Source of the DNA: Marsupella aquatica
Taxonomy: Eukaryota > Plantae > Marchantiophyta
DNA length: 64,000 nt
NCBI GenBank assembly: GCA_973895155.1
Contig: OZ316891.1
Location: 11,778,771 to 11,842,770 of the forward strand
Direction: 5' to 3'
Shown: one piece after another, positions 12,718 to 64,000 of the stretch
Layout of the letters: each line of letters starts with the position of its first letter
Numbering within the stretch: the stretch's first letter is position 1
Translations under genes and position numbers: made by a program
Notes under the pieces: generated by a model
Seen by the model: only the letters and a program-made list of their open reading frames with translations
Database searches by the model: none
Told to the model about the DNA's origin: nothing

Positions 12718-12819
12718 CCTTCTTTAGTCTCTCGAAGATTTGAAACAAGCGAGAATTCACAATACAAACCAGAAAATCTCTCTTCTCCAAATTTCAAAGC
12801 GTTCACCTTCTGCAGATTG

Positions 12820-40379: not shown

Positions 40380-40700
40380 TGCATAAAATATGTTGCACAA
40401 AATATGTTTTGCGAAAAAGACATCATTGCACAAAAGATGTTCTTGCATAAAAGACGACATTACGCAAAAGTATGTGCAAAATGTCATTGGGTAAAAGATA
40501 TTGTTGCACAAAAGGTGCAAAAGAGTGAATTAATGATGACTTTGTGCAAAAGATGTTGTACACAGAGTAATCAATGATTTCATGTAAAAGATTTATAGGT
40601 GTTGCATACAAGATTTGGTCGAGTAAAGACATAATTATTACACAATTTATACAAGATTCGGTTGAGTATGACATTGTTTCACAATTTATATAAGATTTGG
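40380..40700. repeat. Degenerate AAAAGATGT/TGCACAAAA minisatellite-like tract
   Basis: Recurrent AAAGATGT(T/C) cores, the reverse-complement flavour of the 16660-17575 tract. Confidence 0.45.
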
Positions 40701-42971
40701 TTTTGTAATGGTACTCAATTTGATAGGTGTTGCAATAAGGATTTCATTGCATGAAAGATGTAGTTTAGTAAGTAATTATAAATTTGCACAAAAGAGATTA
40801 CAATGTATAATTAAAGTGAAACTCCATCATTCTATTTATTAAATATGAATTTTCTTTTGTTCACTTTCAGGCCCCTAAATGTTTACTTTGTTAGGGGAAA
40901 ACTTAACAGATTAATGTTTTATAAAGATTTATAATTTTAATTTTTAGTTAAATTCATTTTTTAATAGAATCATATAATTATTGCCCTTCAAGGCTTTGGC
41001 ATCTTTGAATTTGGCAGCTTTTATAGAACAAGATGTCCGAGAAAATGAGAAGTGTGACCTCACACGGAGAAGCATGTTTTTAAATTTTTTTGGCAAATTT
41101 TGGCAAAAATGATGATTTTTGTACCTAAAAAACACAATTTTGCCCATATTTCAGTTTTGTATTGCAATTGGGTTGTGGTGCAGCCTAGCTTTGAGAAATG
41201 GGAGAGACAACAATTATACAATCCTGAAATATTGTGTAGTTGAGTTCCTCCTGGACCCTTGTTCCCCCATGTCAAAACAGATAAAATTATCACTTCCAAA
41301 AAACCAAAGAAGATAGAAACTTTTTCAACAATCTTCCCAGAACCTCAAAACACTGCATCTTCCCATACCTGTAAAACTAGGCAACCAAATTGACCAACAT
41401 CCAAATCCTAATTTTGGAAAAATGCCTTTGATAAATTACATCACAGGTGCCCAAGATTTACTGCACAGTTTGACACAGTTTACATCATGTTAATTAAAAC
41501 AATATACTCACACACTACGAACCTATCCCTGGCATGGCCCAAACATTAGATTGCATCGGAAGCAAATTGGCAAGCAGCTCCCCAAACAAGAAATGAATCT
41601 CAAAGGTGATACTGGTATTGCAAAAATCCAATGTCATCAAATAAGACCGCTGAGTGAATTATCCATCAGATTTCAGAAGCAAAACCTAACATTGAATCCA
41701 AAATGCTATACATATATCATTTGTAGGAGCTCTACTTCAAAAATCTCATTTTTGAAATGACCGTCCTATTTTGTTGTCTAGTGAATCCTACACCAGTACG
41801 TAGAAATTGACCATGCGGCCAGACTTCCAAACAAGTATAAATAGCTAGGGCGGCGCAAGAAAACTTCTGCTAGTCATTTTGTTTCCAATTTTGTTTGCAA
41901 CTGTAGTTCAGACTTGCTCAATGGTCATGCGTCTTGTATTTCACTTGTTGAATGCAAAACTCCATTGACTACCTCTATAATGTCTTAGTCAGAATTTGAG
42001 GTGACGGATAGTTACACCGAGTCATCTCCTATATAACATAGGTGTTTGATGTTTGCCAATTGCTTCTACGCTCCTAGTAGGACACAATTGAGAGGTTAAA
42101 AACTACAGTTTATTGTGCCCATCGTCATCTTCAAAATGAGTTCAAACATCAATAATTTTGCACTTTTATTCATTAAGTTACAAATCACCATATTAATTAA
42201 AACTGGAATTTCTCTAGTCCAGAAGTTGACCTTCAAATTTCTTATTTTACCCCCAAAAGTTCTATAACTTGTTCCCCAAAAGCATACATTTTAGTGGCCC
42301 AATATACACTTTTTGAGGTCTAAAATTACAATCCTAATGCCCAAATTATTAATTAAATAATTCAGTTATCAATTATTAATACTTATTAATTAAAAGACAA
42401 TAAAGTGCTCTTATTATATACAATATAAACAATGAAAAATAGAATAAGACAATATAATAAATTCAAATGACCCATGATAACCAAGTTACACAAACACGAA
42501 AGGTACACCGGTGATGTATTATAAAAGTAAAAAACCTATTTTTATAGGGTCAATACCACGTCTGCCCCAATGCAGGCTCTAGATGGTTTTGACCGGTTGT
42601 TGAATGTATATCAATTACTATGTAAAAATCTATGTCAAGATTATCTCGACCCAAATGTAGGGTCCACATAATTTTGACCCGTTGTTGAATCTATATCTCT
42701 AGCTATTCCCTTTGTATAGGGTCGAGACCCAAATAACCTTTTTCTGAGAACATATCTACAAGTAAAAGAGGATCAACAGCATCTAGCCTCAAATGGATAG
42801 TACGCATAGCTTCACTCTTTTTTTGAGTAAGAATATGTATATCTACAACTCACATCATAACTGTTCAATGTAGGGTCGAGATAATCTAGACCCAAATCTC
42901 ATGCTCCTCCACCCTGCAATATGTATATCTACAACTCACATCGTAACTGTTCAATGTAGGGTCGAGATAAT

Positions 42972-44029
42972 CTAGACCCAAATCTCATGCTCCTCCACCC
43001 CGCAGAATTCATTTGAGCAAGTAAATCTAGACCCTGAGGGGTCATATTTCATATCGCGATTGCAGAAATTGAGAGGCTTTCTATTCCAGAACTTTGTGGG
43101 GAGGTCTCTACACCTCAGGACTTCCGAAACAAATCCCCGATGATTGTCTCTGTAGCGTCCTGTGTACTGATATCCAATTAATGTCTTTGCAAGGTCGTTG
43201 ATCGCCTCCTCCATCAATTCCTCCATTGGTGGTAATTGTTGCACTTCATTCTTGACATCCCAAGGAATTTTGTCCGCTGTGACATCCAAGACTGTATGGA
43301 TAACCGAATGAACCCATACCATACTACCCCACCGCTCCGTCAACAATGCATAAATGGCAGCTTGTTGATCTCTGTCCGCTAAAACATTTATCATAGACCA
43401 CTTTGGATGATTGATAAAAAGGTAGTGCTGAAGATTGAAGGCATGATACAATTTCCTGAGCAAAGGCCACAGTATTTTTGGAAAGAATGTATCATCCGTG
43501 GAGTGAAGCGAAAATGAGGAAGGAAACAACCCACAATTCTCTGGATTTGCAAATGCCTTCATTGGAGTGTCATCAAGAAGGAGTGTATTAGTTTCGTCGT
43601 ATAATCCACCATAATGTTTCCAAACAACCCTCAAATCCTTCAAATGAATATTTGCCTTCCCATCGGTAATGTCAGGCCTCTGGATTCCAGTATCGAATAT
43701 ATCTTCTTGTGTGAGAATAAACTTGAATTGCTCTCGCTCTTCTTGACTGAAGATCAAATGAATCATTTCATCCGTCCTGGGTTTCCTTGCACAAGTCCAA
43801 ATGGCAACATCAAATAACGAAAAAGCTGCGATTAAGAACTCGTGAAGATGGGGTCGCTCAACATACATAAAGTTAAACCCTCCACGTCTCCCCCAGTGGA
43901 CACCCTTGACACTTGTCGCACTATGGCGCGGTCCGGAACTTGGCATTTTGACAGAATCCCAACACATTTTGTTGAGGTCAAGAATCAATAGCTTCCGTCT
44001 GATTGGACCGTGAAGTGGAGGCAAGGGTC
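42972..44029 (-). CDS. FCP1/NIF-like HAD phosphatase-domain terminal exon of the element A gene
   Basis: RKLLILDLNK, ERPHLHEFL, FDVAIWT, LKDLRVVW, NTLLLDDTPMKA. The computed ORF starts at TTG, and the domain is preceded by a splice acceptor (TTCTTTGCAG) at 44030. Confidence 0.8.
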
Positions 44030-44416
44030 CTGCAAAGAAGGAACACCAATGTTAGAATTGTAGGAGATAAAATAGAGGAATGCTTGAGATGATCTCAAGC
44101 ATCATAAGTGAATGAACAACAGTCAACATCATACCTATTGTTGGTTGAAGGTCAGTAGTTGAAGAAATCTCAGGACATCTTCAGAGATTATTGTCGACGC
44201 ACTCCACAACTGGTAAGGGCCCGCCTATTTTTGTGAAGGTAGACATAATAATTTAGACGGCTGAATTTCATGACTGTTCAAACTAACTTGGGTTTCAACC
44301 TCACGTGCTGAAAGACCCAAATTCATCTAGAAAGTTATCTCCTAGTTGGTTTTGGATGTCCAAATTTATCCCTCCGGGAAAGGTCTCAACAAGAGCTGGC
44401 TCAGACCAAACTGGCA

Positions 44417-47400
44417 CTAATTTGAACTTAAATCCTTCCTATACTTTCTAGATCGAATAATCTTCTCAGACTGCTCTGTACTGACTTGTTGACCTTTTGA
44501 CGATCCATTAGTCCAGACATAATGAGTAGCACTTGCTTTGAGTGATTTGTAACCAGTTCTACCAATTTCAGTTTCCGATTTCCTAACAAAAGGGAGAATT
44601 ACAGGGCTTCCAGTAGAAGAATTTGTGAAAACAAGCTTATTCTCTGAAGCGCAAAACATTTGGTCCAAGGGAGAGGACGATGCATCTGCCTCGTCCTGAG
44701 GGGGAGTATGGCAGCGACTAGCTTTCTTAGTAGAGAGAATCTCATCCAGTTGAGGAGGGCTTGGAATTGGTTGGCTAACTACATCCTGCAAGGTGGATTC
44801 CCAGCCAACATCCAAGGTTGAAGACTGTTGTTCACGTTGTGCGTCTCCAAGGCCACCCGATGAAGGAACACCTGGAAGGTCGAGATCATCTCGAGCATCA
44901 TTTCCAAATTCAGGCAGTATTTCACCCTCCTCTTCCATGTAGCTTGGGATTTTTGGGCCCTCCGTTTTGTGATGCTCTAAATTCTCCGCAAATACTTCCT
45001 CAAAAACACTGGTTTCCACCGGAGCTATGTCTGAGGCCGCCTCTTCTATAAGAATGAGGGGACCGGCAGTAATTTCCTGAGATGCTAACAACTCTTTGGG
45101 TGGCACATATAAAACCTGCTTGTTGTCATGGAGGAGCTGAGCAAAGGCTTCTGTGAATTCCATCTCTTGAGCTGTGTTCGAATACACAAAACAATCCCGA
45201 CCAAGAATGACACAAGCTTTCAATGTCTGTCCTCCATAGAAGAAATCCAACACTGTGTGACCTGGGCAGGAGAAATAATCAACAAGACGCTTTGTCATTT
45301 GCAAAGGCTTTGCTCTCGGATTTACAAAGCCACCCCGCCGACCGACCATCTCATAAGATGGGGCCATCTTCTCCAAAACTTTGACATCACCAGTAGATTC
45401 ATCGAGCTTATCTTTCCCCTTTGATTGGTCTTTGTTGTTCCCAGTAGGGGCCTTCAAAGGCAAGACTGTGAAGTCTTTGTCCCACTTCTCACTGTAGTTC
45501 CAAAACGCATAAAAGTCATCAAAGAAAATTTGGGACCAGTCTGGTTCCTCTTCACAACAAATTCCCCCAAAGATGATTGAGTCTCGGGCTCCAATGAGAA
45601 AATCTCCCTCCTCCTTGGGCAGCTGATCATGGTAGTAGCTCCCGTACTCCAGCTTTGTGTGGACTTTCTTCTCACGACGAATATTTTCAAAGGCACTCTG
45701 AATCTGGCCTATCAATGGGCCTTGACGGACAAAAAAGATTACCAAGATCTCCGTGAGTCGAGTTTGCCATCTGCAAACAATACTCCAGCAAGACAAAAAA
45801 ATTGGCATCTGTCCATTGCCATTGTCGAAGATGACCAAAATCAACAATGGAAAGTGGGCACGTCCTTTGCACCGAGTCAACAATCTCAGGCTTCATTGTC
45901 CTCATCAAATTATCGCTAAAAAATGTGCGATAAGGAGTATCCTCCATTGAAGGCATCCCGCCAAATACCTTGCAATATATCTGCACAAGCCTAACAATGA
46001 GACTTTGCGGAAATGGGTTTTTTGGCCTATTCTTTTTAGGAGGTTGGAAATCCAAACCTCTCCAGCAAGTTGTCTAAGTTTGGGCAACTCACCACGATCC
46101 ATAAATGCAGGCAAATATTGAGTTAGCTCAAACCAAGTGAGTGAATTGGCAAACCCATCCGGATACTTCAAGACGAAGTACTCCACAATTTTTGCCCTCA
46201 GCTTGGTCATGACTTTGAAAGTATGAGCCATATCACTCATTGATTGAACATCAGATTTGTTGGCTGGGTCTTTCTTCAATAAAACCTTCTGATGTTAAAC
46301 GGCACTAAAAACTTTCAGAATGTCGTCACTACTCAGGTCTCCTTCAAAGCATCTAAACAATGCCGGCGTAATTATTTTTGTTGTCTGGGATTTCCCGTTT
46401 ATTTTTGAACCTAACTCCCCTAGACCATCTGGAAGAAGTCCCTTGACCCAATTGATGCACATTTGTCTCCAAGTCAGACTGGAAGAGGTTCTCTTCCAAA
46501 AAAAGCAACCAAAAAATATTCATCATATCGGATTTTCCAGTCGTTATTTTGGCCAAGGCCATAAAATCCTGATCCAAACAGTACAAAGAAAATCTGAGGC
46601 TCGAGACGATCTCGAGGTAGAATTAAGGAACTATGTTGAAATTTATCGGAGAATACATGAAGATAAATCAAATATATAAACTTGACCTTGAGGCTCGAGA
46701 AAATCTCGAGCTAGAAGTGGATTTGAGTTCGAATATACCTGGAACTTTTGATGATCCGTTAGTCTATTGGACCCAATCACGGGTCTCTCCGGACGGCCAC
46801 ACTCGTCAAACTGTCGATTGGCATGGACCATAGTATCAAGAAAATAGGACTCATACTCCATGGCCTTATTAACAGCATTTGCCCTTTGTGAGTGTTGAGC
46901 AAGTATTGTTCTTGGAGTTTTGTCCGAAAGAATTTGTGACTTTCAATATTGCAGACTCTTCGCAACCTCCTTCAACTTTGCATCGCTCTTAGCCCAACTT
47001 ATGATCCAAACAGCTGCCTTTGCCGAGTGTTGTCCACTAATTGCAAGGAACTGCACCTTCTTATTCTTAACACCCCACTCAAACTCTTTTTGATCCTCAG
47101 GAGTATTCTCATAATGGAGCAACTGCGAACTCTCTCTTGAATATGGAATTAAATCCGCCACAACTGGTACCATTCCAGGGTTTCTAACCATGGATTTCGC
47201 GACCTCCATGGCATGGTCTTTATTGAACATCCTATATACCAATACTATAGAAGGCGAATCTATACTAGTGACAGGAATGTCAAAAGTTTCATTCATGCCA
47301 AATGTGTAATACTCCTCAATCTCCTTAAGAACTTCGGCTCCTTCTTTAACGCTCTTTTCTCCCGGAGCATCTCCTGGAGTGCCATCATCATCGGTATGTG

Positions 47401-49393
47401 CAATCACACCCGAGGAAGATGCCGGAATGAGATCTATCTTGGGCGGTACGGAATTTTTTGGTGGATGAGCCTTCTTCCCTTTGCTTTCGGGTTTGTCAAC
47501 CCTCTTCCTCTTTTGAGACACCTTTGCTTCCTTTTTGTCCAAACCAGAGGTCTTGTCTCCTGCAGCTACGGATTTCACTTTACCTGTCTGTCTCCGATGA
47601 GACAACACCCACTTTTTACAAGCATCCTCGTCAAATTCTCCGGCTCCAAACACAAAATCAGGGGATATGGATTCAAACTCCCCCAATTTTGATTCCAACA
47701 TTAGTCTCAAAACCTTCCACGTGAAAGGAGTCATGAATGCATCATCACGATCAAACCCATACTTTCGACAATAAAGGAATCCAAAAATTATGTCGGCTCC
47801 AGATATAGGACTATCTTCAAGCAAATTACTTGTAGTAAAACCCTCGGGGAAGAACCCCATTGATATCACGCTCAGTTGTTTCCTCGCTGCACGTTCAATG
47901 TTAAGATCGCAAGAGTAGTTTTGGGCGTGAAGTCTAATTAAAGCCCACTTTCCTGTCTCATGGTTCTCCACCGTCAAAACCATGTCCTTACCGTTACTCA
48001 TCACAATAGAAACAACAGGCCCTAGTAGGCTACACACCAGAGGATCGACTGATGGAGACCTCGTCTTCACACAAATAATAGTTCCTTCCATGTCTTCAGT
48101 TTCAGCAAGCTCAATGGCCCAACAGAATCCAAATTGACCTTGTCCAGGGCAGGAAACCTCAATTGCATGTTCATCTTCGACTACCAAATTAGGCGATCCC
48201 AATTTTGCACCTGGTATAGCCAAAATGGTGCAATTGTCATAAACATGTACCACAAAACCAAGAAACAAATAGGAAGCTCGAGATGATCTTGATCTTCCTT
48301 CATTATTAGGACAGCTGAGTCGACAGTTTTATGCACTGTAGTCTGACATGTTCCAATGCCACATCTCATCCGGGGAATTTAAAAAGAGATTTCAACCCCA
48401 AGAAATCTAAAAAGAGAACACAACAGTCAGGAACTACAAGAGGCTCGAGATGATCTCGAGCCACCATCTGTTTAAAAGAAAAATACAAGGGCTTGAGATG
48501 ATCTCGATCCTCAGATATATCAGTTGAGGTTTTATTCCATTGCATATCATAAATCAGTCAAAAATAATCCAATGTCACCTATTCGACCACATTCAAAACC
48601 CTCTAACTCAGTGGTTTGTCATCTTCACAAACGAGTTGGAGGACTAAGAAAGTGGTCCAAAAGGCAATGTTGGATCACATTGGATAGGATATTAGTAATT
48701 GAAGTAGACGACATGGAGTCCTTCCAACTGGAAGAAATCGGTCAAGGAATATGAATGAACATAATGGAAGATGGTGATGAATATATTTGGCTCAAGACGA
48801 TCTTGAGCCTAACATCTCAAATGAGTGATCCGAATATCATATTCAACAATGAACATCATATTCAATCAATGATTAAAATCCACTTTCTCCACTGACTTCT
48901 CATACCCACAAACCCGTTTGGATGTCAATAATCAGAACGAGTTGGAGGGTAGAGAAGTCCCTGGAGGAAGGAAAATTTAGATATTTTGGATATGATGTTC
49001 ACTTTTGAATTATAAGAGCTTGAAGAAATCTGACTAGGTAACATGCAGGAAATGCATATTGGCTCGAGATGATCTCGAGCCTCATGCCACTTACATCAAA
49101 TGCAAAATCAATTGATATCACAAACTTTTGAAGCAAAGTAATGTAGAAAACATCAATGGGCTTGAGATGATCTCAAGCCTCAACTGCATCCAAGGAATCC
49201 AGAAACAAGTGGACCAATTGAAGCTCGAGATGATCTCGAGTTAAACCTGAACAATGAACAAAGATGATGAATTATGTTTAATGGTGCGATGGATCTGATG
49301 TGCTGAGTCTAGATGGGTCTGAAGCTCATCCCCAACGGTTGCAAGGTTGTACTCAGCGAAGTCCTCCTTGGAGAAATCTACAACAGTCGACAT
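44417..49393 (-). pseudogene. Element A gene: unknown N-terminal domain + ParB/Srx-like domain + degenerate beta-class N6/N4 DNA methyltransferase; intron-containing, with stops and frameshifts
   Basis: ParB-like: FDIPVTSID...YRMFNKDHAMEVAKSM...FLAISGQHSAKA. MTase C-half: VNPRAKPLQMTKRLVDYFSCPGHTVLDFFYGG...ACVILGRDC. In-frame TGA at 46943-46945; intron 46569-46738; putative first exon 49393-49247. Confidence 0.7.
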
Positions 49394-50755
49394 GGTTGGT
49401 GAAGAGAGGAACGTACTACGGGCTGAGAACTTAAAAACAAATCTCGAGCCTAAACAAAAAATCTTGACCCTATCAAATCTTGAGCCTAAACACAAAATCT
49501 TGACCCTATAAAATCTCGAGGAAAAAAAATAATCTTGACCCTCTAATATCTCAAGGCTAATACAAGGATCTCGAGGCAAGAGCGCAAAAAATCTAGAGGC
49601 AAGGAGACAAGGGACGCGAGGAGGCGAGGAGGCGAATGTGAAAATGGGGAGTTCAAACCCCTGAAGCCACTATAAGCCCCTCGGGGGTCGGCCTTGAGGG
49701 CCGTGCCAAGCGTGCCACGGGCTCGTGCAGGCTCAAGTAGGCTGCCACGCAACCTATTGGGTGCGTACAGTCATTATTACGGTCACACGTGTTGTCATTA
49801 TTGTTATCCGTACTTCAGCTCTGCCGCGAGTTTAGCCGTGCCACAAGTTTAACCAAACTGTTTGATTGGCCTTTTTGTCAGTCAGGATTTTATATATTGC
49901 TTCTCTTTGCTCTCCAGCGGGTCATTCTTCTCATTTTGTTTCACTGCTTGCTCGTTGCTCCCTTTGCCTCTCTCTGCTCTCTCTCCGTCTCCCTCTCCCT
50001 CTCTCTGGCTCTAGATTTCTGCTCTGATCTCTTTCTATCATTATTTTTAAGGGTTGTGGACTCTGCGTTTGTGTTTAGGATATGTCGAGACATTATCATT
50101 TTAAGCTCTGAAGGAGGTCTAAAATAATTGAGCTCCTATCTTTTAGAAAACCAAACCTTTTCAGCTTATACTAATGTCGGTCAAAATCCATTTGGAAGCC
50201 TTTTCCCTCTATTTGATGGCCTTTTAGAAGCTATTTCTCAGTAAACTGGGAACCTACTTTCTTAATTGCACCAAATCATACCTCTAGATCATCTAGAGCC
50301 ATTTATATGTTCTTATTTTGGGTGGCTTATTATTCATAATAGTATCTTTGTCAAATACAATTTCCTTTTTGGCTCGAGATCATCTCGAGTCATAAGTTTG
50401 ATCCTCAAAATTATTAACTTTTGCCTTCTATCTAATCGTGCATTCGGTTGTCCTTCTTCTAATTGGGTTTGTAGATAGTCGGAGGTATAGAATCTGAATT
50501 CGCTATTTAGTGAGATTTCATATTCTACCTCGAGATCATCTCGAGCTAAATACTTCTGAATTTTTACATATTGGTGTTTTTGGTCCCTCTTCTACCCCGA
50601 GATCGTCTCAAGGTAGAAGAGTTTCTTATTTTCTCTATCACACAGTTTTGTGGGATAAACTTCTACACTTGGGTTTTTTGGTTTGTTTTTGTAGTCACTT
50701 TACTTCGAGATCATCTTGAGGTAACTACATCCAACGGTTTGGACCACGTTTTCAA

Positions 50756-51595
50756 AATGGGGATTTTCTTTTGAGGGGACGAGGTTTGCCTTGTAATCGA
50801 CGGAGTGGAAGTTGCTTGCGGGACCGTCCTCAACGTTGACCCGGGTGACTCAGTGCGTAATGTTGATTTGGGAAGTAATCGTATTGGAGTTCTCATTGAG
50901 AAGTGCTATGAGGGATCACGGGAAATTCCTTACCCTTTGCCGCCAATCAGGACCCTATTTGATGTTGTCGACTCCTGCATTATTTGGGATGCCTCTTTTG
51001 CATATTTGAAGTCACAGTCAACTCCAACGACAACACAAATGGATGCCTCTTGTTCTACAAAGGATACGGTTCCCGGTTTTGTACCAGACAAATCTTCGGT
51101 GGGAAGTTTGGGAGACTCGATTATATTTGGCGATGAAGTCGAGCTTTGGATCGGCAATCAGATTGTGGCTCGTGGATTTGTATTCAAGACAAATCCCGAT
51201 GAGACCTATCACAATGAAAGACTTGGCACTTCTAGGATTAGTGTGAAAATATGTGAAGTTTTTCAAGGAAGGGAGAGGTTACCCTTTCCTCATGCTAGAG
51301 CCAATACCGTTAAGGAAGCATTGGACACTTTTGTATTCTAGAATTTAAACGATGTTACTCGAAGGAGTTCTTCCCAGGATATACTAAACGACCTGTCCAC
51401 ACGGGATGTTTTTGGAAATTATAATTTCAAGGATTATAGTTTGCAATCTAATTGGATGACCGAGGAGGTGGAATTGTATGCTAAGGATAATCAGACCAAA
51501 GTGGGGGTTGGCATCATCATAGTTCCTTTCGAGTTAGGTGCAATTGATGATGAGGTTCTTGGGCCAAATCACATTGGGGTTGCGGTCACACGCGT
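50756..51595 (+). pseudogene. En/Spm (CACTA) TnpA/Tnp1-like protein with three tandem domains, interrupted by an LTR retrotransposon
   Basis: Repeated pattern VAxGxV...P...LG....V.I...(I/L)P(Y/F)P....T(L/V).(D/E)....W, seen as VACGTVLNVDP..LGSNRIGV..IPYP..TLFDVVDSCIIW, VARGFVFKTNP..LGTSRISV..LPFP..TVKEAL and VGVGIII..LGPNHIGV. This resembles the Tnp1/En/Spm-like (Transposase_23) domain. Confidence 0.65.
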
Positions 51596-51679
51596 TGTCG
51601 TGGGGATTCTTTGTTTAGTAAGTTCCTTCTAAGTATAGCTTAGTAGTATAGGATAGTAGTTTGAATTCTTGCATTATAT

Positions 51680-52100
51680 GCAGTCTATAGTGTACACGCT
51701 ATAGTGCACAACCTACAATATGCATGCTACAGTGTACGATCTATAGTATGCATGCTACAGTGTAAAATCAACAGTATGCATACTACAGTGTACGATCTAC
51801 AGTATGCATGCTATAGTGTGCATGCTACAGTGTACATCTACAGTCTGCATGCTATAGTGTACAATCTACAGTGTGCATGCTACAGTGTACAATCTACAGT
51901 GTGCATGTTACAGTGTATGATCTACAGTCTGCATGCTACAGTGTACGATCTACAGTGTGCATGCTACAATGTACGGTCTACAGTGTGCATGCTACAGTGT
52001 AAGATCTATAATGTGCATGCTAAGTGTACGATCTACAATATGCATGCTACAGTGTACGATCTACAGTGTGCATACTACAGTGTACTGCCTACAATTGCTC
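51680..52100. repeat. 28-nt (2x14-nt) tandem array inside the putative LTR
   Basis: CTACAGTGTGCATG-CTACAGTGTACGAT repeated about 14 times with decay. Confidence 0.85.
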
Positions 52101-53220
52101 CACTTACGTAACTACAGTACTAGCACACTTACTTGCCTTGGATATGTGACACATGGCTTCCATCCGTGTGCCATGCTTGATCCGTGTGCTTGAGGTGTAA
52201 GCACTATAAATAAAGTGGAGAGGGGTTCTCTCCCCTCACTCCCTATTTTTCATCAACTGAGTTGTGAAGCCTTAAGAATCCATTGGACTTGATGACCTCT
52301 TCTATGAATATAACCTTTATGAAGTAGACCCACTCATACACGCTTGCTTAGAGCTTCGGCTCGGCCAGAGATATTTTGTATGAGTTGGACCTTCAAGTGT
52401 TATCATTTGATAGGAGATGGTTATTAAGTCCTAAAGAGATGCAAAGTGCTCAACAATACCTCCTTTTGGGTGAAACCCTTATGAAGTAGACCTACGCATG
52501 CACGCTGGCTTGGAGCTTAGCTCAGTCAGTGGTAATTTGTACACGTTGGACCTTCAGATAGTGTTTTCATTCAAAAGAAGATAAACTTATTAAGATGAAC
52601 ATTTGCATGTATATACTTAGAGTTAACTCAATGCATAGTATTTGTTTGAAATAAATAATCTTTTCATTGAATGATTCTATATCTTGTCATTATAATGAAT
52701 ATTAGTTGGATGGAATATTTGATAGTATGATAATGCCCAGACCAGTACCTGTTCTTCCTCTCCCTAATCTTTTCCTTATTAGAATTCATGTACTCCAAAA
52801 AGAGATCATGCGTCAGCATATGACTTTTCACTTTGGAGAAGCATTTACAATTGCGGTGTTAAATTTAATAGAGCCGATTGTATATCCTTATGTAGTTTAT
52901 GGGCAAGATTGGGCTTGCACAATTTTTATCTTGTATTGAGATGGATCTCAACAAACCTCCCTCCGATGAACCTTCCGTTTCTTTCTCGTTAGGAGATATT
53001 TGTTTTGTAACTCAACCCAAGGTAGCTGCCAAGGAGGCAATAGTCCGTAGGTATGAAGAAAAGGGTTATGATGTTGTGCTTTCATCCATAAAACCATTCA
53101 TTGTGGTGTCTGCTACCCAGTCTAGAATAGTAATCATGATCTTAACTTAAGTTCTCTCTTGACACTAGCAGCCATAGGCCCGGTGCTTCCTCAAGAACCA
53201 CATTTTTTCCCCAGACATGT

Positions 53221-53237
53221 TGGCGACCATACTGGGG
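53221..53237 (+). other. Primer-binding site, tRNA-Arg-like
   Basis: TGGCGACCATACTGGGG lies 3 nt after the LTR-terminal CA and resembles the Tat/Ogre PBS TGGCGACTCTGCTGGGGA. Confidence 0.65.
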
Positions 53238-53315
53238 AAACTTGAGGCTAGTGTCAAAGATAAAAGGATATTGATGAGAGAAGAAGCTTGATAGAAAATA
53301 GAAGCAAAGGAGAAG

Positions 53316-55487
53316 TTGTTCACAATGGTAGGAGGAACTATGGAAGAGATGACTGAGATGTTTATGAGTTTGATGGAGGCCAAAGCACGAAGAGAGGCAC
53401 CTGAGAACAAGAAGAAGGAGGAAGCAAGTCGTATGACCAAGTGCTTACAAGCTTTGTTAGCAAAGTTTGGGCAGTTTGACGGGAGAAGAGCAACCCGTAC
53501 TTGAAAGAGTATTGGATAAAGGTAGCCATCCACAAGATCAGTGAGAAGGTTGTCATTCATGAATTTGCATCATTGGTGGAATCAGAATTGAAAGACATCA
53601 TCACCAAGATTGCTGAAGGAGCCAAAGAGGATTGGAAAATATTTGAAATGAGGGTGAAAGAGGAGTTTTGATTTGAAGATCCAGATCGAGTTACTGCAGC
53701 CACATTCCTTGGTTGGGTACAAGAGAAAAACAAGAAGTTGGGACCTCAAGAATTATTGAGGGAATTCAATAGGTGCTACCATCAACTATCTTCAAAGGAT
53801 CTAACAATAATCAGTCTCAGAAGAGGGGGTCTTTTGATCCGTGCAGCTGATATACCTTTGAGGGTAGAGTTGGACAATGCTCTAGATGTTATTGCTCTAG
53901 ATGCGGATGAAGTCACTTGGGAACAAGCAGAAGCTGCAATCCACAAGGTGACAAAGCAAAGGAGGAGAAGGGAGGTTGATCAAGAGGCGGAAGCTCCCAT
54001 TCTAGACTTGAGAAAAGTTAGAGAAGAAAGCACTACTGATGGAGGAGAAAAAGAAGTCAAAAGCAGCATCACAGAAGGGGGCGACATAGCATCATTGACA
54101 GATATGATAGCAAAGCTTGCTCTTTCAATTCAAGCCTTGGACTCGAACAAAAACCCTAGTGGAACATCACTAGCAGCCTTGAATAAAAACTGGAATTGTT
54201 TGTGATGTGATAGCAAGGAGCATCACAGAAGGGATTGTGGAGAACTAACAGAAGCATTGCGACTTCGACATGTCAAGTTTGTGGAAGGAAAGATTGCATT
54301 TGTTGATTCTGGAGAGCCAATACCAATGAATGTGAACCGAGGAGGAATGAAGCAGATTGTGGAACAGAGAATGAGAGAGAAAGTTTCTAGTGCTGCAGCG
54401 ATGTATGGTGATCCTTCTGTCTTTAGTCTTCAAGTTAAGAAGAATCTGCCTTCCATAGAACATCTTGATATTATTGAGAGGAAGAGACTTGTAGAAAGTA
54501 TCTGGAGAAAATCCAGTTGGGATGTGCCTGTGTTGATCAACTCTATCATTGCGGAAGTAGGAGCAGCATGGAATACCGCTGTGGAAGATAAGAGGAGATA
54601 TGAAGGCACTTCTATGGAAGAAACCCAAAGGAGAGAAAAACAACAGAGACCCAAAGCAGGACCTCGCTTCACACGTCAAGCCAAAGAGAAAGGAGTTCGA
54701 TTTGAGGAGCCTGAAGCGTCCACAAGCAAGAGTCAAGAAGAAATCTCCCATGGAAGCTCAATGGATACCGACACCCCAAAGAAAGGTGCTAAGAAGAGCC
54801 CAGGCTATTTGCTTACTAGAGAGGTGGAGCAAACCGTTGATCCAGAAGTGATTGCTGAGAAATTTTGGCAGCAAGAGGTAGGGGGTTCACTAATGGAGAA
54901 CTTTTTGGAAGTCTTCGTTTAGACTTACAAGGCAAGATCTTGGATAGGGCAAGAAGAAAAAGGGTTTACAAGGAGGGACCTCATGCACTAACTGCCAAGA
55001 TTCTTAGCTATGACTATGAAGATGATTTAGAAGATGAAGAAGAAGAAGAAGAAGAATTGGAGGGAAATGTATTTTGTGCTACCATGAGTCACCATGAAGC
55101 AACTTCAGGTATTCATGGCAATGTAGCCCTACATGAGGTGGATTTGCGGGAAACAATCCGACCGTATTGGGCAAGAGCTTGCTCGGAGATTGAGGTGCAA
55201 TTGCTTGGGGCTGAAGGAGGAATTTGGGCACTCCTAGACTCAGGATCTGAGTTGAATCTAATGTCTAAAGAGACATACCAAAAAGGGCATTGGAAGATTG
55301 ATTGTGACATCAAATGGAATGTCAATTCAGTGGGCACAAGGGCAAATCCCTTGTGGGGAGCATGTCCCGAGATCATGATCAAACTTGGGAATGTGGTAGA
55401 AGCTATCAATGTCTTTGTATTTGAAAAACTTCCATATCCTCTTATTCTTGGTGTTCCTTTCATCACGGAATTACGAGTAGAGACCAT
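53316..55487 (+). pseudogene. Gypsy gag-protease (multiple stops and frameshifts)
   Basis: Fragmented ORFs 53316, 53738, 54257 and 54865 with a zinc knuckle and DSGS protease motif; the frame resumes at ~57170 after the CACTA insertion (RVET/MVLDDGTH). Confidence 0.8.
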
Positions 55488-57166: not shown

Positions 57167-57382
57167 CATGGTACTTGATGATGGTACTCACATGGAAAAA
57201 GTGAAGAGCAAGGATGACTTGAAGAAGATTCAATTTCCCATACTTCGGCCAGGTAGTACAAGAGATCGTCGGGAATTTAAAACGGTGGAGGAGTACAGGT
57301 CCGACCAGAGTATGAAGGGTTTTGACTAGGCGTCCCGCTAAGAGAAGCAAGCAGGCAGGATGCTAAGCCTTTAGTCTCGTCT

Positions 57383-58118
57383 ATGGAGGTTCATTCCTCT
57401 TTTGTTGGTGTGAGTAGGACTAGTGAAGTGTGCTATTTTCATAAAGGTGGTGTGAAGAGGAGAGCTCAAAAGATGTTGGAAAAGAAAGAAAAAGATTTGT
57501 TCACATTAGGAGTGTTGAAGGTTGAAGAGAGAATAGAAGGAGTACTAGAGGAAAGGGGATTACCACCCTCTCTTCGAGAGATTATTGGAGACATTGAGGA
57601 AGAAAATGGAGAAGTGGAGGTAGAAAGGGATGTGTATGGTTACATTGAGCACTTTGCAGAAGTACACACAAAGTACAAAATAGTGGACAAGAAGGTGCGA
57701 CCTACAGCAGTTCCCTTGCCATCTGAGGCTAAGGAAATACTGAAGCGAGCAAAGGAGGAGCCAAGTCCTAGAGATCGTACTAAGATTGGGCATAAATTCA
57801 CTGAGGAGACGTTGCTCAAATTAAAGATTGGTGATAAGGGTTTACTAGAGGAAGAGAGAAGAGCCTTCGAGAAGATGATCATCAAACATGAAAAGGCCTT
57901 TTCCTTTTCCATTGAAGAGATTGGATGTGCTGATCCAAGGGAGATCACACCAATGGTAATCTTCACTGTTCCACATGTTCATTGGGACCTTAAGCCAATT
58001 CCTGTGCCACGAGCACTAATGCCTAAGTTGGTGGAGTTATTCAAGGAGAAGTTAGATGCCAAAATCCTTGAGAGAGCAAACGCTCCATACTTAAATCGGT
58101 GGTTCACTGTGAGAAAAA
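57383..58118 (+). pseudogene. Gypsy pol segment up to the start of reverse transcriptase
   Basis: TKYKIVDKKVRP, PMVIFTVPHVHWDLKPIPVP, PYLNRWFTVRK. Confidence 0.8.
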
Positions 58119-60028
58119 CACGTTGACGGACCAAACGAGAAGTGTGATAGGCTTCTCATTTGGGCCACCCCAAATTTTTTCTAAGTGTAAAACGCGACGT
58201 GATACAAACCAAGATTTCCTACAAAATCAAACATTTTCAAGCGCAAAATCAAAACATCTCAAACTTTGACTAGTGAACCTTACGAAACAAGGTAAAATGA
58301 CATTTTGTATCACCAAGTTTTATGGAGGCAATACAAAATATGATACGGGGCATCACATTTCACATTCCTTAACAAGTAAATTCGATGTGGTTCTTTATCA
58401 ATAGAGAATATTCCAAAAAGATACCAACTATGGTCAAGTTAACCCATTAATAATTGTACTATGGTAAAACTTAACTCGACCACAGTACAAACTAAACTAG
58501 GCTCAATCTGAAAAGTATAAATAAAGGACCACAAAAAATAATTAGCTTCATAATTTTGTTTTGTGTCCTCTAACCCATGTTACTCCTTCCTCAATGTTGA
58601 AAGCAATTGTCCATACAAACCCGGATTCAACAAGGCCACCGACTAAACTGCTAGTAGTTATCCTCACTTATCCTCCTTTTCCTTTACTTCAAACCCAAAT
58701 CTGATTCTTCGTATCACATTTCAGATTCTTAATGTTACTTTACCATTCAAAAGTGATAGAGTACTCTTGAAAGCAAAACCCAAATGTGATACGCTGTATC
58801 ACATTTTGGATTCCTAAAGGGTTGAAAGAGGTATTAGTTTGAGTGGGAAATGAGGGTATTGGGCTTGAGAATTAGATTTTGGATATACTTGCTTGAAGAA
58901 TCCAAAATCTGATACGTGTATCAGATTTTGTATTCTTCATAGAGATTTTGTTCTTAACTTATTATCTTGGTTAGAGGGTCAAGTCTACATGCGTAGACAT
59001 TGCTGGTAATTGGAAGAATTTATTAGTGAGACAAATACAGGGAATTGTTGACCAGGTTTTATGGACCAGGAATTGTTGACTAATGGTTGTGGTTGGAGAA
59101 GTTTAGGGAGTGGTTGTTGACTAGTGGTTGTGTACGAAAATATTGACCAGGAATTTTTGACCAGGTTTTGTTGACCAGGAATTGATGACAATGTCTCAGT
59201 TTGCCTTGCTATATAAACTACAACGTTTTCTAGAATAATTGTGAACAAGGATTGATTACATTGAGGTACGATGTTTACAGCCTTTTGCTCAGAGCTCTAT
59301 TGTCGATGTTTTTTTCCTCAGTCATGGATTTGTAGTTGTCATTTCCTAATAATTTCTGATCTTTGAATTCATGTTATTAATCAAGCACTAGATGGACCAA
59401 AGTAATTCATGGTGGATAGAAAAGTACTGTCTTGTTATTCAGTCTGCATCTTTTGACTCTATATACTCTAATTTCTGTGCAAAACCCAGAAAGTTAGGCA
59501 AATTGACTTTTGCATCTCATTGTAGAAATTTTTTGTTTATCATTGGAGTTGTTTTCTATGAATCAATTTCACTGATTACTCCTCAATGACTTAATGAATC
59601 AAAAATATTGATGATCCATTGGAAAGGCCTTGGAATTCCGCATCTTTTGATTATATATACTCTGATTTTCGTCGAAAATTAAGAAAGTTAGGGAAAATCG
59701 AATTTTCCAACTTGTCACAGAAAATAGGCGCGCGCGACTTCGGCGACTTCATTCTGAAGCTTTGCTCAATCATTTGATTTAATTTTTTTTCTCCTTGATC
59801 TTATTCTCTTGAGCTTCAAGTAGAATTCAAGATGAACCTGAACTGAGTTGAGAAATAGTTCCAAACTCTCTCGACAAGCTAAGGTTCCTCCAAGCACGGG
59901 ATTTTGAAAAACAATTTGAGACTCTATTGTCTTGTTTTTCTTGGAGCAATACCAAATCTGATTCTGAGTATCAGATTTTTCATTCCTCAACTGTTAAGGT
60001 GGGAGCTAGTTTATTATTTGCCGTTAGG

Positions 60029-63000
60029 ATGTCAAGCGAGAGCAAGAAGGCTTCCATGGAAAAAATGCAGACTATGGGGTCAATCTGCGACATTATTTGG
60101 CAAGATGAAATGATTTGTTCAGAGGAGAAATTTGTGACCCGATCTTGGTACCTCCGAGATGGGCGAATTGTGGATCCAAACAACCAATACGAAGGACCAG
60201 TCCTATTTGTCCAGATCAAGAAGACGGAGTCAATTACCCTTTCGTTTGGTCCAGTATTGGCGGTGAGCATGGCAGATTTCCAGGAGAAGCGGGGAAAAGG
60301 TACAAAGCAAAAAAAAGCATTAATGTTCCTGGTGATGGCCGAGACAAAGGGATTTTCTTCTGTTGTTCTTACCTATGAGAAATTTGACCCAGTTTTGATG
60401 ACACCGTATGAGGATGATCCTATTGTTACAGAGATTCTTGCTCTCCAGGATCCAAACTTGGAGAGATGGTTTGTGCATTTTTGTAGCCTGAGTGATCCTA
60501 TTCTCTTTCCGAAATTGCAAACATATTACAGACAAGTGATAGGAGATGATCTTGGGAAGTCGCCAAGGAAGTTGAGAATTATACTACCAAAAAAACCAAT
60601 AGAGAGTAGAAGAAGATGAGCCCATCCCCCTGAAAACTACAAGGAAGAAAAGGAGTGGGACATCTGTAAATAGTGATAGCAAAGAGCTTTCAGAGCAAAC
60701 AAATGCATCAGCTGATCAATCAAAGATTCATTTGACGGTTGCTAATAGCACTTTTGACAATAAAAGTGCATCGGGTGCTGCTACTTCTGACCTCAGTCTA
60801 CGCGTCTCCGACATGGCTTTTACAACGGTAAATACATATTCCATTGATCATTGTTTAGAATTATTGGTTTGGCTTGATCTTGGCTAGAATCATGGAACCA
60901 TCAGCTTGGATTGATCTTATATCTGTAATTTGTGGACAGGAGACGGACGAGATGACCACTGCTCTAGAAAGACATGAGACCGAGGCAGCACGCACTGATT
61001 TGGCCATGCTTATGATAACCAAACGCGTACAAAAGACAACGGTCTCTCTGTCCCTTGCAAACTTGATTTTTGATGAAGATGGAATGGAGAGCTCCACTCT
61101 TGTTCGAGCAATTGACCAGTTGCACGTGGAGAACATCAAAACTTTGATGAAGAAAAGCCCTTCAAATTTTAGTGCTCCATTTGTTCTTGTAGTTGAACCT
61201 GAAGATTGCCCAAGAGTCAAAGATTGGGATATCAGCAAGTCCAAACTTTGGAGGTATCGCATAATTGGAGGAAATCATGGAGCAAGGGCAAAGGCAGAGC
61301 TTTACAGAGCATACAAAAAGGAGATATTTGGTCAATTGCAAGCTTGAGGGGGGCAAAAAGGATATCCAATTTCTCCACCAAAAGGATTCTAGTCATTTCC
61401 AATTTACAAGGGGTGGACAAGGTGTTACACCAAATGGCTAGGATTAGTTTGTTGAGATTGGATGGTGAGATCTTGCATGCCAAGTCTTTGGAAGTGTGTC
61501 CAGGCTTTTAGGAAATCCCAATCTTCTTGGAAGTGTGTCAAACCTTTATGGAAGTGGTGTTCAACTAAATCTTTATGATCTTTGAGTCCTTTTTCTCTCC
61601 TTTTTGAGCTAATCCTTTTTGCGTCCTTTTGCCCCCCTCAATCTTGCAATTGACCATTTTCCGAGATTGAAGCTTGGGTTTATGCAGATTTAACCCCTCA
61701 AGATGTTCAATGGTTAGGTTGGTAGCACAATATTGATCAGGAATATAGAAAGAAGATGAATAGAATTGACAAGATTAGAACTTGTCACAAGATATTCATT
61801 GCCAGGGGTGGAAAGAGGACCTCGGACCTTCGTGCAGTCTGTGCTGTTGAGTGCCACATGGAGCATTACATTCCTGGAAATAGGGCTAGCTTACAAACGT
61901 GGGATCCTCTTTTTCAGATTGCCTTTCGGACAGGAACAGTGTGGGAGCTTCAAGAAAAGATTATGAGTATGTATTGCAAGCTTGAATTGAAAGGGCAAAA
62001 GAAAGTGCAAGCACCAGTGATAGTGACGGCCAGCAAGGGGAAGGGCAAGGGCAAGACAAAAGCTCCGGTTCCAAAACCAATTCAAAAGTTGGCTGATGAC
62101 ATGAATCTTACACCTTGGAAAGATATCCAAGGTATCTCCAATGAGACTGTCATCCAAAAACTCTTAGAATGAGTGGTGGCAAAATACATCAGTTTAGAGG
62201 AAATGGGGCACGAGGCCGATACGTACAAAAAGCTTAAAAAAATTAAAAATACATTTGTCCAACTAGCGAATCAAGAGAATTGGGCCGCATGTCGAGCTAT
62301 GTTTCCCAAAGAAACTGAATCGAAAGAGCTCGAGCGATTTGTTGAGGTCATGGCCGCAGTTGTAAGTATTCCAAACCTCAAATTATTTTGAAGTTAATTA
62401 ATTTGATTGTTGTTTAGATTTTAGAGATATTTTATATGATCCAAGTATCAAGTTTATTATTGGACCTCTGGTTTTGTAGTAGTTGAGAGACTTGATTAGC
62501 TGATACTGAATTCAAAATATGATACCGAGTATCATCTTTGGTATTGACCTATATGTTTACTGGGAAATTCAGCCTTAGCAATCCCAGACATGATGTGGAG
62601 TATCAAATTTGTTATTGGTCATTTGTTTAATCAAGATGTCTTCATTTTGTACTTATAGATCAAACTCTGCTCAAAGAGGAAAAAGGAGCCAAGGATTGGA
62701 AATGAGGTTGATGAAGTCGGAGAAGAGGAACTTCCTGCAGATAAGATTCCTCTACGGTTCAGGAATTTTGTGGCCAAAGCAATTGAAGACTACAACAAGA
62801 AGCTTGCAGGCGAGGAAGTCGAATCATCCGAATTCACATGGAAGAATGCTGATGGCGATGTGATGTCCTATGCTCTTCATACAGGAGATGCCAGGGTTTG
62901 CAAGGCATTTTTGCCACCAAAAAATTATACTTTGGCCATAGCTGACATCCCATACGGTTTCAATGCGGTTGGGTCTGAGAATGACGAGAAGGCATTTGAG

Positions 63001-63749
63001 GAGAATGATATCATCGATATGGTGGAGGGATTTGCAAGTGTGACAACAGCTGAGGCTTGGCGCTTTGTTGTAATACATTCTTTGCAGCAGGTTAATAGTG
63101 TTATGAATGCTCTTGGTAAAACCTGCAATGCGGGAATTGAAGCTGGTATTTGGGAGAAGACTAATGTTCATGATCATCCATCAGGTAACAGGTTGGCTTG
63201 GTCTTTGAAAATTGGACAATTGGTTTTCATAGCAAAGATGGAATCAGGACAAGGGAGATGTACAATTTCACAAAAGAAGAGAGTAGAGGAAACATCATTA
63301 AAGTCCCATGCGTAACTGTGAAGTCAGTGACTCTTTTGGGGGAAATAGTAAACCCCTACCAAAAGCCAGTAGCTTTATCACAATATTTTGTGGATCATTT
63401 TAGCTATGAAGGGGATTGGGTTATAGACTTTTGTGCAGGGACAGACTCCACAACCTGTGCAGCCCTCCTCAGTCATCGACATGCTGCAGCAATTGAGTTG
63501 AGCCCTACTCAAGTAGATTTTATTGTAGGGCCAATTTAAACTCTAGACTCTAGGTGGCAATTGACTGAGGAGCATGAAATCCAAGGGACTGGGATTCAAG
63601 CTATGGAGATTCAACCGCCATTTGGTGGACTACAAACTAGCACAGTTATGACTGAGGTTGTCGAGTACGAGGACCATGTAGAGGATGAGGTAGTAGAAGC
63701 ACCTGAGGAAGATCATCCAGCTAATTTTGATGATATGTTGGAAGATTAA
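60029..63749 (+). pseudogene. Element B gene: unknown N-terminal domain + ParB/Srx-like domain + complete beta-class N6A/N4C DNA methyltransferase domain + acidic tail
   Basis: ParB-like: VRAIDQLHVENIKTLM...YRIIGGNHGARAK...IEAWVYADL. MTase: LHTGDA, LAIADIPYG, IWEK, NPYQKP, GDWVIDFCAGTDST, AAAIE. Lesions: MITE at 61330, stops at 61723, 62170 and 63537, frameshift near 63205. Confidence 0.85.
61330..61655. mobile_element. 326-bp MITE with ~33-bp TIRs and a 4-bp TSD (ATTT)
   Basis: GGTCAATTGCAAGCTTGAGGGGGGCAAAA...TTTTGCCCCCCTCAATCTTGCAATTGACC. Removing it plus one ATTT restores the host frame KEIFSEIEAWVY. Confidence 0.9.
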
Positions 63750-64000
63750 CTGATTTTGTATCAAGTTTTGAAAGTTAGACCGGTCAATAAACATTTTGTA
63801 ATTTGTTTTCTTGAAGTAATCAAACAAGTATTTCCCGCTGGTAATCTTGGATATTCTCCCAAGTTCCGTGCACTAAATATGTTGTAAAGAGTAGATTTTT
63901 TAGTCATGAACTTTGGCTAGTAGGGGTGGCTACCTTGTCGCTTGCTTTCTAGTCCCGATCAATATCTAATGTGATACTAGTATCATGTTATGTTTTTCTT

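What the first reader, a model, noticed from the sequence alone, without database searches (positions are those of the whole stretch)
42634..50721. Palindrome A concentrates in introns and non-coding DNA, and its central base flips around the divergent promoter
Seen: left of ~49.6 kb most centres read GAGAT-G-ATCTC; right of ~50.2 kb they read GAGAT-C-ATCTC. Both therefore read CTCGAGA-TCA-TCTCGAG on the sense strand of the respective gene (exceptions: coding copy 44879 and A/T-centred variants at 42.6-43 kb and 46692). Copies lie within predicted introns (44030-44134, 46569-46738) and immediately beyond the donor at 49247. Some copies keep symmetry through matching changes in both arms (44082, 48789, 49159, 50281). 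Inference: these are oriented protein-binding sites or pre-mRNA hairpins rather than random insertions.
Basis: partly seen in the sequence, partly recalled or inferred. Interest (0 to 1): 0.78.

Follow-up and report, generated by a model that had tools for sequence, protein, structure and literature searches.

The report
Oriented palindromes in plant ParB transposon
A broken copy of a highly repeated plant mobile element carries 19 copies of one 17-letter mirror-image DNA word, nearly all in predicted introns and leaders and pointing away from a central promoter-like stretch, and they are most likely landing sites for a protein the element itself encodes that is predicted to resemble bacterial ParB.

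Summary
There are 19 copies of CTCGAGAT-N-ATCTCGAG (0.2 expected), all inside one highly repeated, decayed plant element. Eighteen lie outside predicted coding DNA. The centre base is G in 9 of 14 left copies and C in 5 of 5 right copies.

It also missed that a second ParB-methyltransferase element in the window has its own, different palindrome.

A liverwort relative of the minus-strand protein folds like ParB/Noc, proteins that bind palindromes. Best reading: element-specific docking sites, likely for this protein; binding is untested.

Mirrored substitutions are real (6 against 1.2 permuted) but are weak evidence of function. Two of them appear private to this dead copy, as CpG decay plus template switching would give. 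The methyltransferase appears to lack its catalytic motif. The plus-strand gene is not confirmed as TnpA. Why the centre base follows the sense strand is unexplained.

Precedents in print are inverted repeats beside ParB genes in red-algal Plavaka elements and VANC motifs in VANDAL introns. This scan noted similar arrays on other DNA (e1-7359107, e1-7221177, e1-7358898).

The parts
42190..51611 (.). Element 1, a highly repeated DNA element; left end approximate, right part cut by an LTR retrotransposon; superfamily not determined
   Evidence: A low-depth contig piece ends at 42220 in two runs and depth rises steeply beyond it; other copies go on with different sequence after 51595
42575..43034 (.). 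Three palindrome copies (42634, 42875, 42961; GTC/GAC arm type, A/T centres) plus half-sites, in 85-86 bp repeats downstream of the phosphatase gene
   Evidence: one contig skips 94 bases here (42823 to 42918)
42972..44246 (-). NIF/FCP1-like phosphatase gene; start approximate; one predicted intron
   Evidence: PF03031 E 2.2e-16; in-frame join across 44134-44030
44030..44134 (-). Predicted intron C (105 nt) with the copy at 44083
   Evidence: GT...AG ends, in-frame join
44417..49393 (-). ParB-fold plus amino-methyltransferase-like gene, broken by stops and frameshifts
   Evidence: PF01555 E 2.4e-6; 140 relatives; ParB/Noc fold of a Riccia relative; tblastn link E 7e-18
44879..44895 (-). The only copy inside coding DNA; centre inverted relative to its neighbours although its flank resembles that of 44083
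46569..46738 (-). Predicted intron B (170 nt) with copies at 46600 and 46694
   Evidence: Spliced Calypogeia relative P0016 runs straight across it; two genomic relatives end their frames at the same place
48211..49246 (-). Predicted intron A (1036 nt) with seven copies: 48277, 48444, 48492, 48791, 49063, 49161, 49224
   Evidence: Splice-like ends; phases agree only if exon 1 is 2 nt shorter, as loose contig ends in three runs suggest
49441..49600 (-).
   Evidence: tandem repeat of period 16-36
49601..50006 (.). Predicted divergent promoter: TATA-like words at 49670 and 49890, with pyrimidine-rich leaders on either side
   Evidence: Read from the sequence; not tested
50007..50720 (+). One half-site (50007) and five C-centred copies (50282, 50373, 50529, 50596, 50704) upstream of the plus-strand gene
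50757..51611 (+). Plus-strand gene of three similar beta-rich repeats, with stops, cut by the LTR; resembles Tnp1/DUF8039 repeats by eye (recalled), unconfirmed
   Evidence: No Tnp1 or TnpA Pfam hit; Atlas hits uninformative
58128..64000 (+). Element 2 (comparison case): a second ParB-like plus methyltransferase gene (about 59833-63749) with its own palindrome AAATNTGATAC-N2/3-GTATCANATTT; start approximate
   Evidence: 5 matches against 0.01 expected and 3 against 0.10; PF01555 E 2.7e-9; its ParB likeness is by eye only (probability 0.2; iE 0.054)

Best explanation
The 19 palindromes and the half-site row are likely element-specific docking sites for a protein that the element encodes, most likely its ParB-fold protein, which would bind them as a dimer and mark or regulate copies of its own family.

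Shown: the word is confined to this element, avoids predicted exons, occurs as inverted pairs and as a head-to-tail row, and differs from the word of the second element.

Predicted from a relative: the ParB/Noc N-terminal fold, followed by a helical domain.

Inferred: binding; a role in switching the two divergent genes on or shielding them from silencing, as VANC and TnpA do; and that the methyltransferase-like domain acts as a dead scaffold or reader, not an enzyme.

Mirrored variants likely arise neutrally, by CpG decay and arm-to-arm template switching. The flip of the centre base likely records how sites spread within each transcription unit, perhaps held by a polar contact; that step is the weakest.
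For: 19 against 0.2 expected, none outside 42634-50720. 18 of 19 outside predicted exons.

Nine co-oriented half-sites at 49441-49600 and one opposite at 50007; the 10-mer pattern gives 27 matches against 2.3 expected, 24 of them inside the element.

The two leaders share no alignable sequence once the cores are masked (score 33; shuffles 27.7 +/- 2.7, maximum 35), so the word is kept and its surroundings are not.

In runs X2 and X4 contig depth jumps at the copy beside the donor: 18,671-23,101 against 385-4,166, and 5,945-6,811 against 284-2,068, with unlike sequence upstream of 49216. No change of the centre base is listed at any of the four copies laid.

Element 2 has a different palindrome: eight matches over two patterns, plus a weaker ninth at 62591; three lie in its predicted intron 62362-62658.

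The model of Riccia relative P0096 has block pLDDT 82-98 over residues 91-340. Foldseek's best hit is Noc, E 5.6e-5; VIA-align gives ParB Z 9.9, rmsd 2.1 over 93 residues.

ParB and Noc bind palindromes (PMC7383237 passages). Inverted-repeat arrays lie next to ParB genes in red-algal Plavaka elements (bioRxiv 10.1101/2025.02.11.637652 passages).
Against: No binding data exist.

The helix-turn-helix part aligns only loosely (Z 7.2-7.5, rmsd about 5). The motif reads GQHS where ParB has its arginine patch (recalled), with the serine nearly invariant, so CTP clamp action is doubtful.

The depth jump comes from one study; X3 shows it weakly and X1 not at all.

A symmetric dimer does not by itself explain an oriented centre base. 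Element 2's spacers vary in sequence and length (2 or 3 bases). The element's right half, with any transposase, is outside the window, so other candidate binders are unseen.
Confidence: 0.55

Rival explanations
1. The sites are bound by another product of the element, either the plus-strand repeat protein or a transposase/TnpA-type protein encoded beyond the LTR, as CACTA TnpA binds direct and inverted subterminal motifs.
For: The mix of head-to-tail half-sites and inverted pairs matches CACTA subterminal motifs (PMC2613891 passages). TnpA binds clustered family-specific motifs (bioRxiv 10.64898/2026.08.24.746577 section 4).
Against: In that section TnpA binds the termini, whereas these sites are internal and intronic. 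The plus-strand protein has no TnpA or Tnp1 Pfam hit. Both palindrome-bearing elements in the window carry a ParB-like methyltransferase gene.
Confidence: 0.22
2. The word has no binding partner. It is a self-maintaining palindrome spread by local duplication and conversion inside the element and kept symmetric by template switching, or the footprint of a tiny insertion element.
For: Mirrored changes look private to a dead copy (48804 and 49175). Flanks extend the symmetry with different sequences (36 against 20 permuted, p 0.009). Template switching homogenises arms and inverts spacers (PMC8604942 passages), which could explain 44879. Three right-hand copies have TA on both sides.
Against: No copy in the other 55 kb of the window. 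No flanking duplication longer than 2 bases at any of 19 copies, and none at all at 12. Copies sit in four separate non-coding stretches without shared surroundings. A second element repeats the pattern with another word.
Confidence: 0.14
3. The copies act as hairpins in the pre-mRNA (7-10 bp stem, UCA or UCG loop) that affect splicing or are read by an RNA-binding protein, which would explain why the loop follows the sense strand.
For: 14 of 19 copies have C at the centre on the sense strand. Base composition and ATG avoidance do not explain this (intron A: C 158, G 161; ATG 26, CAT 25). Predicted folds of -5 to -21 kcal/mol for 16 copies with flanks. One copy starts 6 bases into the predicted intron.
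Against: The nine tandem half-sites cannot pair with each other. Antisense folds are about as stable. The arm sequence, not just the pairing, is kept. No Rfam match in 42000-52000.
Confidence: 0.09

Closest known systems
Plavaka accessory gene PAG3 with adjacent inverted-repeat arrays, red alga Bostrychia (bioRxiv 10.1101/2025.02.11.637652; passages read; supplements not seen)
   Same: Transposon-borne ParB-like protein with inverted repeats next to its gene; the authors propose self-binding and self-modification, untested in the passages read
   Different: There the second domain is a 2OG oxygenase and the repeats are tandem arrays; here it is a degenerate amino-methyltransferase, the sites are dispersed through predicted introns and leaders, oriented by gene, and the host is a land plant
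ParB-like plus N4C/N6A methyltransferase accessory gene of Sola1-1_Ec32, Ectocarpus (PMC12477816; passages read)
   Same: Same two-domain protein on a large DNA transposon, proposed to bind and modify its own element
   Different: No binding-site motif in the passages read; here the catalytic motif seems lost in element 1's clade and kept in element 2
VANC motifs of VANDAL transposons, Arabidopsis (PMC5735166; passages read)
   Same: Family-specific short motif in introns, intergenic and terminal non-coding DNA, arrayed in one orientation, partly in tandem repeats
   Different: The VANC21 motif is a 9-base non-palindromic word and binding is proven; no VANC or Mutator transposase domain was found here, and most copies here are not in tandem repeats
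ParB-parS and Noc-NBS of bacteria (PMC7383237; passages read)
   Same: ParB N-terminal fold; palindromic sites of similar length in many copies; site sequence differs between family members
   Different: Eukaryotic, intron-containing, fused to a methyltransferase-like domain; arginine patch (recalled) replaced; the site has a single unpaired centre base; no ParA seen
TnpA and subterminal repeats of En/Spm (CACTA) elements (PMC2613891 passages; bioRxiv 10.64898/2026.08.24.746577 sections 4 and 6)
   Same: Element-encoded protein recognises a family-specific motif present in direct and inverted orientation
   Different: Those motifs cluster at the ends; no CACTA end or TnpA domain was identified for element 1

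Membership tests
ParB/Noc protein with palindromic site | ParB N-terminal (CTPase/Srx) fold | tested here: met
   Model of relative P0096: Foldseek Noc E 5.6e-5; VIA-align ParB Z 9.9, rmsd 2.1, 93 residues; top five of 48,161 representatives are ParB/Srx-fold proteins. Window protein linked by tblastn E 7e-18
ParB/Noc protein with palindromic site | Helix-turn-helix DNA-binding domain after the N-terminal domain | tested here: inconclusive
   A confident helical domain follows; alignments over both domains are loose (pNOB8 ParB Z 7.5, rmsd 5.1, 192 residues; KorB Z 7.2, rmsd 4.9, 186 residues)
ParB/Noc protein with palindromic site | Arginine patch GxxR for CTP binding (definition recalled) | tested here: not met
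   G-Q-H-S nearly invariant in 71 aligned relatives and in the window
ParB/Noc protein with palindromic site | Many copies of one palindromic site of about 16 bp | tested here: met
   19 copies of a 17-bp palindrome
ParB/Noc protein with palindromic site | The protein binds the site | not testable with these tools
   Needs a binding assay
Plavaka PAG3-type accessory gene | ParB-like domain fused to a 2OG oxygenase | tested here: not met
   The C-terminal domain is PF01555 methyltransferase-like
Plavaka PAG3-type accessory gene | Inverted repeats next to the ParB gene | tested here: met
   dispersed rather than in tandem arrays
Plavaka PAG3-type accessory gene | Plavaka (EnSpm-type) transposase in the element | not testable with these tools
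   The element is cut by an LTR at about 51612; no genome held; no related loci
VANDAL/VANC anti-silencing system | Family-specific motif in non-coding parts, co-oriented at high density | tested here: met
VANDAL/VANC anti-silencing system | VANC protein and Mutator-type transposase | tested here: inconclusive
   No such Pfam hit among the 14 window frames scanned, but the element's right half is outside the window
VANDAL/VANC anti-silencing system | [quoted passage not shown] | not testable with these tools
   Needs methylome data
CACTA TnpA subterminal repeats | Motifs confined to the element's ends | tested here: not met
   16 of 19 copies lie 1.8 kb or more inside the left end
CACTA TnpA subterminal repeats | TnpA or Tnp1 domain protein | tested here: inconclusive
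   Resemblance by eye (recalled); no Pfam hit up to E 10
Active beta-class DNA amino-methyltransferase | Catalytic (D/N/S)PP(Y/F) motif and FxGxG motif (definition recalled) | tested here: not met
   Element 1 reads IVDFG (placed by eye) and DFFYGG; Riccia relatives read FADL, IADL, FADF or FVDL and DFFSG/DIFSGG/DLFSGG. Element 2 keeps DIPY and DFCAGT
Miniature insertion element footprint | Target-site duplication around each copy and copies outside one host element | tested here: not met
   No duplication over 2 bases at 19 of 19 copies; no copy elsewhere in the window; the rest of the genome was not available

The most novel reading that the evidence does not exclude
Land-plant transposons run a eukaryotic ParB-parS system: each family's ParB-methyltransferase protein loads at its own set of polar, intron-borne palindromes and spreads over the element to keep both divergent genes active, with site and protein diverging together between families; some families keep an active amino-methyltransferase that writes a bacterial-type mark and others only a dead reader domain.
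Probability: 0.2. Interest if true: 0.8.

Novelty: new variant of a known kind. Interest (0 to 1): 0.5.

Why it matters
Papers on algal transposons propose that ParB-like accessory proteins bind their own element, but the passages I read test no site. Here two different elements in one plant window each give a defined candidate site next to such a gene, so specificity can be tested crosswise with two proteins and two oligonucleotides. A positive result would add a third transposon self-recognition system in land plants beside VANC and TnpA, built from a bacterial-type fold. It would also supply orthogonal protein-site pairs. The finding further shows that mirrored substitutions in palindromes are not, alone, evidence of function.

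Tried and rejected
No whole genome is held, so a genome-wide orientation test was impossible.

No related DNA loci: viral contigs, 80 candidate stretches, none confirmed; metagenome contigs, 97 and 274, none confirmed; prokaryote genomes, 29, none confirmed. No RNA holder listed.

Searches for longer relatives by shared words found none. The profile search later found some.

Sequence searches of solved structures gave nothing for the ParB part and only weak beta-class methyltransferase hits for element 1 (best E 0.013). The first structure model was poor and its Foldseek search had no match at E 0.001.

Rejected: an ancient inverted duplication of the two leaders (no homology beyond the motif); strand base composition or ATG avoidance as the cause of the sense-strand C; a known RNA family; an active methyltransferase protecting the motif's GATC (catalytic motif appears absent in this clade).

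The left end could not be assigned to a superfamily by eye. The plus-strand protein stayed unnamed: Atlas hits were unnamed viral clusters with low shared counts. The Atlas likened the ParB part to fungal unnamed and DUF3723 clusters (0.95-0.96); not followed up.

Literature searches listed no paper on a land-plant ParB-methyltransferase element with intronic palindromes. Most subscription papers and the bioRxiv supplements were not visible; Supplemental Fig. 13A of the Bostrychia preprint may show repeats closer to these than its text says.
Full report
THE OBSERVATION. The pattern CTCGAGATNATCTCGAG has 19 matches with up to three mismatches, all between 42634 and 50720, against 0.20 expected. 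On the plus strand the centre base is G in 9, A in 3, T in 1 and C in 1 of the 14 left copies, and C in all 5 right copies. Restricted to G/C centres the split is 9 of 10 against 0 of 5, p 0.002; the copies are related, so the true weight is lower. Read on each gene's sense strand, the loop is TCA in 11 and TCG in 3. With my predicted exons, 18 of 19 centres are non-coding (p 1.8e-7).

THE SETTING. No genome is held. The DNA is plant-like: spliceosomal-type introns, an LTR element and a CACTA element. The only named relatives of the element's protein, among 20 looked up plus one named, are from the liverworts Riccia sorocarpa and Calypogeia fissa. The host itself was not identified. Contigs of four public runs show a low-depth piece that ends at 42220 (depth 85 in X2, 23 in X4) and far higher summed depth beyond it (X2 2,315-105,359; X4 930-13,662). 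That is no copy number, but it marks a highly repeated element. An LTR element cuts it at about 51612, and other copies continue differently after 51595. Its ends and any transposase could not be classified.

THE GENES. On the minus strand lie a broken gene (49393 to 44417) with an N6/N4 methyltransferase hit (E 2.4e-6) and a NIF phosphatase gene (E 2.2e-16). A profile search found 140 relatives of the first. A model of one, Riccia P0096, has block pLDDT 82-98 over residues 91-340. It matches Noc (Foldseek E 5.6e-5) and ParB (Z 9.9, rmsd 2.1, 93 residues). A helical domain follows, but its match to the ParB DNA-binding domain is loose. The ParB arginine patch (recalled) reads GQHS. The methyltransferase catalytic motif appears lost in the window and in Riccia relatives (placement by eye). 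The plus-strand gene has three similar repeats that recall Tnp1 domains (from memory), but Pfam does not confirm this.

THE INTRONS. Intron 46738-46569 is backed by a spliced Calypogeia protein that runs straight across it. Intron 44134-44030 joins in frame. A 1036-base intron from 49246 to 48211 would hold seven copies. Its phases agree only if exon 1 is two bases shorter than in the window, which loose contig ends in X2, X3 and X4 suggest. None of the introns is confirmed by RNA.

Nine half-sites stand head to tail at 49441-49600, all in the sense direction of the minus gene, and one faces the other way at 50007. The polarity therefore also flips at half-site level, and the unit is a sequence, not only a stem. 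With the cores masked, the two leaders show no homology (33 against 27.7 +/- 2.7). A second element from about 58128 carries another ParB-like methyltransferase gene; its ParB likeness is by eye only, and its methyltransferase hit has E 2.7e-9. It has a different palindrome: 5 matches against 0.01 expected and 3 against 0.10, with three copies in a predicted intron. Its spacer varies in length and sequence.

OTHER FAMILY MEMBERS. Laying contigs on 48770-49260 listed no change of the centre base at any of four copies at a 35% threshold; an absent row is not proof. In X2 and X4, which are one study, depth rises several-fold at the copy beside the donor while the upstream intron is unlike, which suggests a larger subfamily keeps that site. 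X3 shows this weakly and X1 not at all. At 49070 most depth in all four runs reads C, so TCG loops are common in the family.

THE MIRRORED CHANGES. They exceed a permutation of arms: 6 against 1.2, p 6e-5, for 18 copies with one tandem duplicate dropped; 4 against 0.8, p 0.002, without the 42.6-43 kb group. Flank symmetry is also in excess (36 against 20, p 0.009). All four copies with both CpG sites changed are mirror images. But at 48804 and 49175 nearly all contig depth in four runs has the intact base, and no difference is listed at the partner positions 48794 and 49163. The family thus seems asymmetric there, and this dead copy gained the mirror change on its own. Template switching is known to homogenise arms and invert spacers (PMC8604942 passages), and CpG decay gives a mirror outcome half the time (inference). 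Symmetry is therefore a mutational signature more than a sign of selection. Since spacer inversion should scramble the loop over time, the kept polarity remains unexplained; base composition and ATG avoidance do not account for it.

MECHANISM. Most likely (0.55) the sites dock the element's ParB-fold protein, as ParB and Noc bind palindromes (PMC7383237 passages), and the bound protein regulates or shields its own family. Binding and effect are inferred. Rivals: another element protein (0.22), neutral spread (0.14), RNA hairpins (0.09).

WHAT IS KNOWN. ParB-methyltransferase accessory genes are reported from an Ectocarpus Sola1 element (PMC12477816 passages; lead from note e1-7364692). ParB-HTH fusions to adenine methyltransferases are reported from chlorophytes and chytrids (PMC4738411 passages). 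Inverted-repeat arrays next to ParB genes are reported from red-algal Plavaka elements (bioRxiv 10.1101/2025.02.11.637652 passages; supplements not seen). Intronic, co-oriented, family-specific motifs are proven binding sites in VANDAL (PMC5735166 passages). TnpA motifs cluster at element ends (bioRxiv 10.64898/2026.08.24.746577 sections 4 and 6; PMC2613891 passages). The Marchantia 4mC enzymes carry TSPPY (bioRxiv 10.1101/2021.02.12.428880 passages), unlike element 1; I did not compare their sequences. Searches listed no paper on this arrangement in land plants. Earlier notes of this scan describe similar arrays in other genomes; they are unchecked and are not counted as support.

VERDICT. 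A real, well-defined feature. It works like VANC motifs or parS sites but is not shown to belong to either family. New variant of a known kind; interest 0.5.

Noticed in passing
window 58128-64000: A second element, starting CACG inside the reverse-transcriptase frame of the LTR element, carries a ParB-like plus methyltransferase gene with an intact-looking DIPY motif and its own palindrome family, including three copies in a predicted intron (62362-62658) and one in coding DNA (59954).
   Followed up: partly
window 55488-57166: A non-coding CACTA element with inverted ends, a 3-base CAT duplication and 24-base subterminal repeats in opposite orientation at the two ends, inserted in the LTR element.
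   Followed up: partly
window 51612-58126: An LTR retrotransposon (LTR to about 53217, primer-binding-like site at 53218, gag-like frames, aspartyl protease, start of reverse transcriptase) cuts element 1; its LTR holds a 14-base tandem repeat of about 29 copies (51685-52085). Three layers of nesting in all.
   Followed up: partly
window 42961-42977: The stop codon of the phosphatase gene lies inside an arm of a palindrome copy.
   Followed up: no
window 50587-50621: The copy at 50596 has a decayed core but nine extra perfectly complementary flanking bases, as arm-to-arm copying would leave.
   Followed up: partly
window 19408-21000: An RNA polymerase Rpb5-like gene (PF03871) whose reading frame begins with about seven copies of a 24-residue repeat (72-base tandem, 19528-20041).
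   Followed up: no
window 16616-17562 and 40380-40760: Two arrays of decayed 17-18 base repeats, of the kind seen at transposon ends.
   Followed up: no
window 59041-59189: A 14-base tandem motif (TTGACCAGG-containing) upstream of element 2's gene.
   Followed up: no
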